Below are positions 21,486 through 21,693 of a DNA stretch of 64,000 nt, piece after piece. The notes beneath the pieces were generated by a model. It saw nothing but the letters and a program-made list of their open reading frames with translations. It searched no databases and was not told where the DNA came from. The position numbers and the translations under genes are program-made. Within the stretch, counting starts at the first letter, position 1, and the number at the start of each line of letters is the position of its first letter. This DNA is from Escherichia coli (GTDB taxonomy: Bacteria > Pseudomonadota > Gammaproteobacteria > Enterobacterales > Enterobacteriaceae). The DNA lies in the NCBI RefSeq assembly GCF_051903065.1, contig NZ_CP178438.1; one strand, given 5' to 3'.

Positions 21486-21693
21486 ATTAAATACATCCTG
21501 TCTGCTGCGAACAATATCTGTAGTGAATATCACTATCCATTGAAGGCGTCAGTATGGCTATTTTCTTGATGAATAAAAATAGCTTTATTCAGCCACCGCA
21601 TTCATAACTTATATGTTTTATTTATTAATTGGCTGCATATATTTTTAAAGTAAATGCTTTTGGGGGCTTAAGCGCCCCCAAAAGTGAGTGGCA

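What the first reader, a model, noticed from the sequence alone, without database searches (positions are those of the whole stretch)
21657..21684. 11 bp arm palindrome between yjcS 3' end and the ytcA-mdtNOP promoter
cttttgggggc-ttaagc-gcccccaaaag lies 10 bp downstream of the yjcS stop. It may terminate yjcS and insulate the efflux operon promoter, though the flanking U-tract is atypical.
Basis: seen in the sequence. Interest (0 to 1): 0.2.

Follow-up and report, generated by a model that had tools for sequence, protein, structure and literature searches.

The report
Ordinary terminator hairpin after yjcS
The palindrome is real and is most likely an ordinary transcription-terminator hairpin at the end of the E. 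coli sulfatase gene yjcS, kept as a structure (not as a sequence) in related bacteria, so it is a routine feature rather than a discovery.

Summary
Perfect 11-nt arms (21657-21667 / 21674-21684) flank a 6-nt loop, and the hairpin starts 9 nt after the yjcS stop codon on the minus strand. The window is E. coli, with yjcS, ytcA and mdtNOP all on the minus strand.

Every enterobacterial yjcS I could fetch has a hairpin 7-11 nt after its stop, followed by a U-rich tail, but the stem sequences differ between genera. These were Escherichia species, Salmonella arizonae, Citrobacter, Pluralibacter, Kluyvera and Superficieibacter.

Among Escherichia-type sequences, stem pairs 2-12 are never broken. Three pairs show compensatory double changes. 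The G·U wobbles in pairs 2-12 are valid only on the yjcS-sense RNA.

This points to an RNA hairpin, most likely a Rho-independent terminator and 3'-end protector for yjcS, lying upstream of a conserved ytcA regulatory region. This strain carries a rare, weakened allele with an A·C closing pair and the tail CAUUUACUUU. Most E. coli have a 12-bp stem followed by AUUUAUUUU.

No experimental 3'-end data were found, so termination and insulation remain inferred. Low interest; an unannotated member of a very well-known kind.

The parts
21694..23679 (-). yjcS coding sequence (alkyl sulfatase); stop codon TAA at 21696-21694
   Evidence: RefSeq annotation of the identical strain XH990 mapped onto the window; ORF list; translation
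21685..21693 (-). 9-nt spacer between the stop codon and the stem (UGCCACUCA). Its last base, A at 21685, faces C at 21656 as an A·C mismatch here, but this position is a G-C pair in most E. coli
   Evidence: Sequence; pair 1 in the pair table
21674..21684 (-). 5' arm of the RNA hairpin (CUUUUGGGGGC on the yjcS transcript)
21668..21673 (-). hexaloop GCUUAA (GCUGAA in most E. coli; a UAAA tetraloop in the B2-type allele)
21657..21667 (-). 3' arm of the RNA hairpin (GCCCCCAAAAG)
21647..21656 (-). U-rich tail CAUUUACUUU, the weak U-tract of this allele. The 3' end is predicted near 21648-21650, equivalent to K-12 positions 4304566-4304568 on the minus strand
   Evidence: Terminator scan; tail scores. 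The predicted end position is an inference from the usual 7-9 nt distance
21551..21612 (-). Blocks conserved across genera in front of ytcA. They are ATAAGTTATGAATGCGGT (21612-21595), the inverted repeat GCTATTTT (21583-21576) / AAAATAGC (21564-21557), and the invariant CATACT (21556-21551). Together they are a candidate ytcA-mdtNOP promoter/operator, which the hairpin would shield from yjcS read-through
   Evidence: Alignment of 10 lineages; coordinates. The promoter role is inferred, and no sigma-70 consensus was found by the scan
21210..21485 (-). ytcA coding sequence, first gene of ytcA-mdtNOP; its start lies 171 nt downstream of the hairpin
   Evidence: Annotation

Best explanation
The palindrome encodes an RNA hairpin on the yjcS (minus-strand) transcript. 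It acts as a Rho-independent (intrinsic) terminator and as the 3'-end protecting stem-loop of the yjcS mRNA. RNA polymerase leaving yjcS transcribes CUUUUGGGGGC-GCUUAA-GCCCCCAAAAG and then a U-rich stretch. The 11-12-bp hairpin forms in the exit channel while the weak A/U-rich hybrid is in the active site, and the transcript is released about 7-9 nt past the stem. This ends the yjcS unit before the conserved control region of the co-directional ytcA-mdtNOP operon, so that operon is driven from its own promoter. In this strain the element is a weakened allele, with the closing pair lost and U changed to C in the tail, so termination is probably less efficient than in most E. coli. Shown here: the hairpin exists, it is conserved as a structure, it works on the sense strand, and a U-rich tail is present in all lineages. 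Inferred: that polymerase actually stops there, how efficiently, and that this insulates the ytcA promoter.
For: - **Position and strand:** the stem starts 9 nt after the yjcS stop. The terminator-like scan hits it only on the minus strand: 11 pairs, 7 G-C, loop 6, tail CATTTACTTT.
- **Structure kept, sequence replaced:** in 16 lineages a hairpin of 8-13 pairs (-15 to -25 kcal/mol) starts 7-11 nt after the stop, with unrelated stem sequences in different genera. Examples are S. arizonae UGCGUCCGGAGA/UCUUCGGGCGCA, Pluralibacter ACUUCCGAAAGCG/CGCUUUCGGAAGU and Citrobacter GUUCAGGGG/CCCCUGAAC.
- **Covariation:** on the structure-aware alignment, 97.5% of cells pair, against at most 64% when the partners are slid. 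Three pairs have changes on both sides. The covariation score is 0.263, against 0.177±0.025 in shuffles (0 of 500 reach it). In the wider table, pairs 2-12 are never broken in 14 distinct rows, and doubles occur at pairs 1, 3, 5, 6, 7, 9 and 10.
- **Strand specificity:** the 6 G·U cells in pairs 2-12 would be A·C mismatches on the opposite strand. Sense versus antisense folding energy is -21.6 vs -13.2 kcal/mol (E. coli B2 allele) and -20.1 vs -12.5 (S. arizonae).
- **U-rich tails everywhere:** the common E. coli tail AUUUAUUUU scores -3.39 (only 2.6% of random 15-mers do as well). Citrobacter UUUUUAUUCA scores -5.06.
- **Location relative to ytcA:** the hairpin lies 45 nt upstream of blocks conserved in front of ytcA in all genera, and the yjcS-to-ytcA gene order is conserved.
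- **Other classes excluded:** there is no Rfam family match, and there is one copy per genome at megablast sensitivity.
Against: No transcript 3'-end data for yjcS were found in any held Term-seq or 3'-end supplement (other papers had no held supplements). The tail in this strain is weak: 4 U in the first 8 nt, and 21% of random 15-mers score as well. Some genera also have poor tails (Kluyvera georgiana, and the first Superficieibacter hairpin). The base of the stem is four A-U pairs, and in this allele the outermost pair is an A·C mismatch. From general knowledge of terminator strength, both should lower efficiency. The covariation rests on few independent lineages. All three double changes come from one lineage (L091/L176), and the alignment was fitted to the structure.
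Confidence: 0.75

Rival explanations
1. The hairpin is mainly a 3'-exonuclease barrier rather than the terminator itself. Transcription would end further downstream, by Rho or diffusely, and PNPase/RNase II would trim the RNA back to this stable stem-loop, which then sets yjcS mRNA stability.
For: Stable stem-loops without a good U-tract mark the steady-state 3' ends of Rho-terminated E. coli transcripts (Dar & Sorek 2018, PMC6061677, abstract). The U-tract of this strain's allele is no better than a fifth of random sequences. Kluyvera georgiana and the first Superficieibacter hairpin also have poor tails.
Against: That paper places rut sites immediately downstream of such structures. Here the 171 nt downstream are A/T-rich with no excess of C over G (A65 C25 G27 T54). 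Most lineages do have a U-rich tail directly after the stem, and it is strong in Citrobacter and Pluralibacter. The two roles are not exclusive.
Confidence: 0.15
2. It is a leaky, possibly translation-sensitive terminator. Its read-through would deliberately couple expression of the sulfatase YjcS with the downstream ytcA-mdtNOP efflux genes, so it would act as a valve rather than an insulator.
For: The yjcS-ytcA gene order and a hairpin only 7-11 nt from the stop codon are conserved in six genera. The stem base is A-U rich and the tails are imperfect, and alleles differ in predicted strength.
Against: There are no expression data. A separate, strongly conserved control region lies in front of ytcA, which argues for independent regulation. 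Short stop-to-hairpin distances are common for ordinary terminators (general knowledge).
Confidence: 0.06
3. It is a DNA-level palindrome bound by a dimeric regulator of ytcA-mdtNOP or yjcS, or a bidirectional terminator serving an antisense transcript.
For: It has perfect dyad symmetry and lies in an intergenic region upstream of ytcA. The + strand also folds, with 12 pairs including a G·U.
Against: The arm sequences are not conserved between genera while pairing is, which is the opposite of what an operator would show. The G·U wobbles in pairs 2-12 pair only on the yjcS-sense strand. On the + strand the hairpin is followed by GUGAGUGGCAUUAAUUUGGGG, with no U-tract, and no gene converges on it. 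The T-run lies 5' and the A-run 3' of the G+C core on both strands, which is the reverse of a bidirectional terminator.
Confidence: 0.03
4. It is a chance palindrome or a fragment of a repeated element with no function.
For: Short G-run/C-run palindromes can arise by chance, and 6.7% of shuffled windows contain one of this size somewhere.
Against: It falls exactly behind a stop codon. It is retained in about 5,300 E. coli genomes. It is structurally conserved with compensatory changes across species and genera. It is single-copy at the sensitivities searched.
Confidence: 0.01

Closest known systems
Rho-independent (intrinsic) transcription terminators of E. coli, as defined by TransTermHP-type criteria and catalogued by Term-seq (e.g. 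TERMITe atlas, PMC12207403)
   Same: It has a G+C-containing stem-loop with stem of at least 4 and loop of 3-13, here 11-12 bp and a 6-nt loop. It lies directly after a stop codon on the sense strand and is followed by a U-rich tail. The structure is conserved while the sequence turns over.
   Different: The U-tract is interrupted (A/C-UUU-A-UUUU) and is weak in this strain. The lower five pairs of the stem are C-G plus four U-A, so a T-run precedes and an A-run follows the G+C core, which is the reverse of the usual A-tract...U-tract layout. The loop is 6 nt, against a median of 4. No mapped 3' end is on record.
Protective 3' stem-loops of Rho-terminated transcripts (Dar & Sorek 2018, PMC6061677)
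   Same: It is a stable hairpin at the end of a gene with a poor U-tract in this allele, and it would block 3'-5' exonucleases.
   Different: Most lineages do carry a U-rich tail. No C-rich, G-poor stretch follows the hairpin.
Bidirectional intrinsic terminators (hairpin flanked by an A-tract 5' and a U-tract 3')
   Same: It is a perfect palindrome that folds on both strands.
   Different: The polarity of the A and T runs is reversed, no gene converges on it, and the pair 2-12 wobble pairs fit only one strand.
REP/BIME-type intergenic palindromic repeats of enterobacteria
   Same: It is an intergenic, imperfectly conserved palindrome located after a gene.
   Different: It is single-copy in the window and in each genome, at megablast sensitivity.

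Membership tests
Rho-independent (intrinsic) terminator | Stable G+C-containing stem-loop (stem of at least 4-5 bp, loop 3-13 nt) | tested here: met
   11 pairs (7 G-C), 6-nt loop, about -21.5 kcal/mol; 12 pairs and -25.3 kcal/mol in the common E. coli allele
Rho-independent (intrinsic) terminator | U-rich tract immediately 3' of the stem | tested here: inconclusive
   It passes the tool's loose rule of at least 5 T in 8. However, the window allele CAUUUACUUU scores only -2.42, and 21% of random 15-mers do as well. The common E. coli allele scores -3.39 (2.6%) and Citrobacter -5.06. The scoring formula was recalled from memory
Rho-independent (intrinsic) terminator | Lies downstream of a transcription unit, on its sense strand | tested here: met
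   It starts 9 nt after the yjcS stop on the minus strand. The inner-stem G·U pairs are valid only on that strand
Rho-independent (intrinsic) terminator | Hairpin maintained by selection (pairing kept through sequence change) | tested here: met
   97.5% of cells are paired, 3 pairs have double changes, and 0 of 500 shuffles reach the covariation score. Pairs 2-12 are never broken in 14 rows. Different stems occupy the same place in six genera. Caveats: few lineages, and the alignment was fitted to the structure
Rho-independent (intrinsic) terminator | Transcript 3' ends map in the U-tract; factor-independent release in vitro | not testable with these tools
   There is no entry for yjcS, ytcA or coordinates 43045xx-43046xx in the held supplements of PMC7815308, PMC12207403 or PMC10687069. 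Three other papers had no held supplements
Rho-dependent terminator with protective hairpin | C-rich, G-poor rut region immediately downstream of the stem-loop | tested here: not met
   The 171 nt downstream are A65 C25 G27 T54
REP/BIME or other dispersed palindromic repeat | Many related copies per genome | tested here: not met
   One match in the window at up to 3 mismatches. One place per genome in every one of the 506 genomes matched by megablast
Transcription-factor operator palindrome | Arm sequence conserved among orthologous regions | tested here: not met
   The arms differ completely between genera while pairing is kept. In contrast, the blocks at 21551-21612 are conserved in sequence
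Known RNA family (Rfam 15) | Match at or near a family's gathering score | tested here: not met
   The best overlapping hits score 18-22 bits against gathering scores of 34-43, and all are eukaryotic or viral families

The most novel reading that the evidence does not exclude
The hairpin is a deliberately leaky, allele-tunable valve rather than a full stop. Because it sits only 7-11 nt from the yjcS stop codon and has an A-U-rich stem base and an imperfect U-tract, part of the yjcS transcription would read into ytcA-mdtNOP. This would couple the alkyl-sulfatase with the efflux pump whose gene order next to it is conserved across genera. The rare weakened allele in this strain (A·C closing pair, U-to-C in the tail) would then raise pump expression.
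Probability: 0.07. Interest if true: 0.3.

Novelty: new member of a known kind. Interest (0 to 1): 0.1.

Why it matters
It matters little beyond annotation. It defines the 3' boundary of the yjcS transcription unit and supports treating ytcA-mdtNOP as a separately controlled operon. That is relevant to how this normally silent efflux pump becomes expressed. One published resistance mutant activates mdtOP by deleting alsR through mdtN, which places mdtOP near the als operon promoter (PMC8672772). The locus is also a clean small example of a terminator hairpin evolving by compensatory change, with G·U intermediates visible within E. coli.

Tried and rejected
- **Experimental 3' ends:** I searched the held supplements of Adams 2021, TERMITe 2025 and TRS 2023 for yjcS, ytcA and the K-12 coordinates, and found nothing relevant. 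Dar & Sorek 2018, the 3'-UTR valves paper and the Nanopore paper have no held supplements. Thomason 2015 (start-site mapping) is not held.
- **Sequence in the literature:** a full-text search for the K-12 hairpin string found no paper.
- **Rfam:** only sub-threshold chance hits.
- **MAFFT alignment (A2):** it put the L091/L176 indel upstream of the stem instead of in the loop, so its columns were unusable for pair counting. I replaced it with a covariance-model alignment.
- **First covariance-model alignment (A5):** it also contained antisense matches to the palindrome. I filtered these by hand and excluded them by threshold in A6.
- **Metagenome scan:** most of the 120 hits were chance matches. 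About 18 contained the locus.
- **Sigma-54 promoter:** no consensus within 2 mismatches upstream of yjcS in this strain. The published RpoN/NtrC site lies in the K-12 yjcS-alsK spacer, which is replaced here.
- **Rejected readings:** operator palindrome, bidirectional terminator, dispersed repeat and chance palindrome were each considered and rejected, as set out under the rival explanations.

Full report
**What is there**

The window is E. coli. The region is 100% identical to strain XH990 and 96.6% identical to K-12. All genes here lie on the minus strand:
- yjcS, 21694-23679
- ytcA, 21210-21485
- mdtN, 20160-21191
- mdtO, 18109-20160

The + strand reads cttttgggggc-ttaagc-gcccccaaaag at 21657-21684. 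The arms are 11 nt and perfectly complementary, with a 6-nt loop. On the yjcS transcript the layout is UAA, then 9 nt, then CUUUUGGGGGC GCUUAA GCCCCCAAAAG, then CAUUUACUUUAAAAAU. The equivalent K-12 coordinates are 4304575-4304602 (with the gap-free alignment).

**Is it more than chance?**

Only two places in the 64-kb window hold a perfect hairpin with arms of at least 11 nt and a loop of 3-10 nt. Dinucleotide shuffles give 0.083 per window. The motif is unique in the window even at 3 mismatches. The region is present in 5,361 of 5,426 complete E. coli genomes. The consensus scan calls it terminator-like on the minus strand only.

**Comparative evidence**

I fetched yjcS loci from species-representative genomes and from metagenomes. 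Every enterobacterial yjcS examined has a hairpin starting 7-11 nt after its stop codon, followed by a U-rich stretch. The stem sequences, however, are unrelated between genera:

| Lineage | Stem arms | Tail |
|---|---|---|
| S. enterica subsp. arizonae | UGCGUCCGGAGA / UCUUCGGGCGCA (two G·U) | UUUCAAUUCA |
| Pluralibacter | ACUUCCGAAAGCG / CGCUUUCGGAAGU | UUUAUAUAUC |
| Citrobacter | GUUCAGGGG / CCCCUGAAC | UUUUUAUUCA |
| Superficieibacter | CCCCGCCC / GGGCGGGG | CUUUAAUACG |

Kluyvera also has a hairpin at this position.

Within the Escherichia-type hairpin the changes are informative:
- Most E. coli have a 12-bp stem closed by G-C.
- K-12 has G·U at that closing pair, E. whittamii and Escherichia sp. 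MOD1 have A-U, and this window has A·C.
- The B2-type allele (for example strain 81009) has G·U wobbles at pairs 6 and 10 and a re-shaped UAAA loop.
- An unidentified enterobacterial lineage (metagenome contigs L091 and L176, about 80% identical) has full compensatory changes: C-G at pairs 5 and 6, and A-U at pair 10.

On the covariance-model alignment, 97.5% of cells pair, against at most 64% when the partners are slid by one or more columns. Three pairs changed on both sides. No shuffle out of 500 reached the covariation score. In the 14-row table, pairs 2-12 are never broken.

The G·U cells in pairs 2-12 are valid only on the yjcS-sense strand. Accordingly, the sense RNA folds much better than the antisense where wobbles occur: -21.6 vs -13.2 kcal/mol for B2, and -20.1 vs -12.5 for S. 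arizonae.

There are three caveats. The three double changes come from one lineage. The alignment is fitted to the structure. The outermost pair is mismatched in four rows.

**What it most likely does**

A sense-strand RNA hairpin directly behind a stop codon, structurally conserved and followed by U-rich sequence, is the signature of a Rho-independent terminator. Such a hairpin also protects the mRNA 3' end.

It lies 45 nt upstream of sequence blocks that are far better conserved across genera than the hairpin itself:
- ATAAGTTATGAATGCGGT
- the inverted repeat GCTATTTT-N11-AAAATAGC
- an invariant CATACT

These blocks sit 65-130 nt upstream of the ytcA start and are the likely ytcA-mdtNOP control region. 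The yjcS-to-ytcA gene order is conserved in all these genera. Stopping yjcS transcription before this region is therefore a reasonable inferred role.

**The U-tract**

The tail CAUUUACUUU has 4 U in its first 8 nt. With a TransTermHP-style tail score (formula recalled from memory), 21% of random 15-mers do as well. The common E. coli allele, a 12-bp stem followed by AUUUAUUUU, scores -3.39, which only 2.6% of random 15-mers reach. Citrobacter scores about -5.

The window's exact 69-nt allele occurs in only 24 of 5,426 genomes. It is thus a rare, probably weakened variant.

The T-run and A-run belong to the stem itself: U-A pairs form the stem base. As a result, the G+C core is flanked in the reverse of the classical A-tract/U-tract order, and the element cannot work as a bidirectional terminator.

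**Rivals**

- A protective hairpin for a Rho-terminated transcript (PMC6061677) is possible, especially for this allele. However, the downstream 171 nt show no excess of C over G.
- A DNA operator is contradicted by the complete turnover of arm sequence and by the strand-specific wobbles.
- A dispersed repeat is excluded by copy number.
- No Rfam family matches.
- A deliberately leaky 'valve' that couples yjcS to the pump cannot be excluded, but nothing supports it.

**What is missing**

I found no experimental 3'-end record for yjcS in any held dataset. The K-12 RefSeq record lists only coding sequences here. Termination, its efficiency and insulation are therefore inferred.

**Verdict**

This is a real but ordinary feature: a previously unannotated (as far as I could check) member of the best-known class of bacterial terminators. 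Interest is low.

Noticed in passing
window 21551-21612 (minus strand): Sequence blocks are conserved from E. coli to Salmonella arizonae, Citrobacter, Kluyvera, Pluralibacter and Superficieibacter. They are ATAAGTTATGAATGCGGT, the inverted repeat GCTATTTT / AAAATAGC with an 11-nt variable spacer, and an invariant CATACT. This is probably the ytcA-mdtNOP promoter plus an operator for an unknown regulator. The sigma-70 consensus scan finds nothing on this strand.
   Followed up: partly
window 54923-54952: This is the only other perfect hairpin in the window with arms of at least 11 bp (AAGCCAACCTTAAG / CTTAAGGTTGGCTT). It lies between two minus-strand ORFs (54977-56314 and 53230-54918), with T-rich sequence on either side, and looks like another terminator.
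   Followed up: no
window 23680-24900 (L001 5571-6501): Upstream of yjcS this strain has a response regulator and a carbohydrate kinase where K-12 has the allose (als) operon. This fits the published OI167 island (lmvR/lmvK), described as EHEC-associated and inserted in place of the als genes (PMC10128022). Yet this strain matches a urine isolate.
   Followed up: partly
window 21647-21685: The hairpin allele of this strain (A·C instead of a G-C closing pair, U-to-C in the tail, loop GCUUAA) is rare. The exact 69-mer is found in 24 of 5,426 complete E. coli genomes.
   Followed up: yes
L005 543-598 (E. coli 81009, B2 type) versus L091 10488-10544 and L176 1669-1725: The B2-type E. coli allele carries G·U wobbles at stem pairs 6 and 10. 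These are exactly the positions where the L091/L176 lineage has fully compensated C-G and A-U pairs, so intermediates of compensatory evolution are visible within the species.
   Followed up: partly
L012 3695-4070 (Superficieibacter electus): About 100 extra nucleotides lie between yjcS and ytcA, with two separate hairpins. One follows the stop directly, and a second (GAUGACGG...CCGUCA + UUUUUAUUCA) lies just before the conserved ytcA blocks.
   Followed up: no
window 23680-23960: There is no sigma-54 consensus (up to 2 mismatches) upstream of yjcS in this strain. A gSELEX study lists an RpoN/NtrC site in the K-12 yjcS-alsK spacer (PMC8743547). That spacer is replaced here, so yjcS regulation may differ between strains.
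   Followed up: partly
window 21688-22971 (+): A 427-codon GTG ORF runs antisense inside yjcS and starts just beside the hairpin. It is most likely a shadow ORF of the yjcS frame, not a gene.
   Followed up: no
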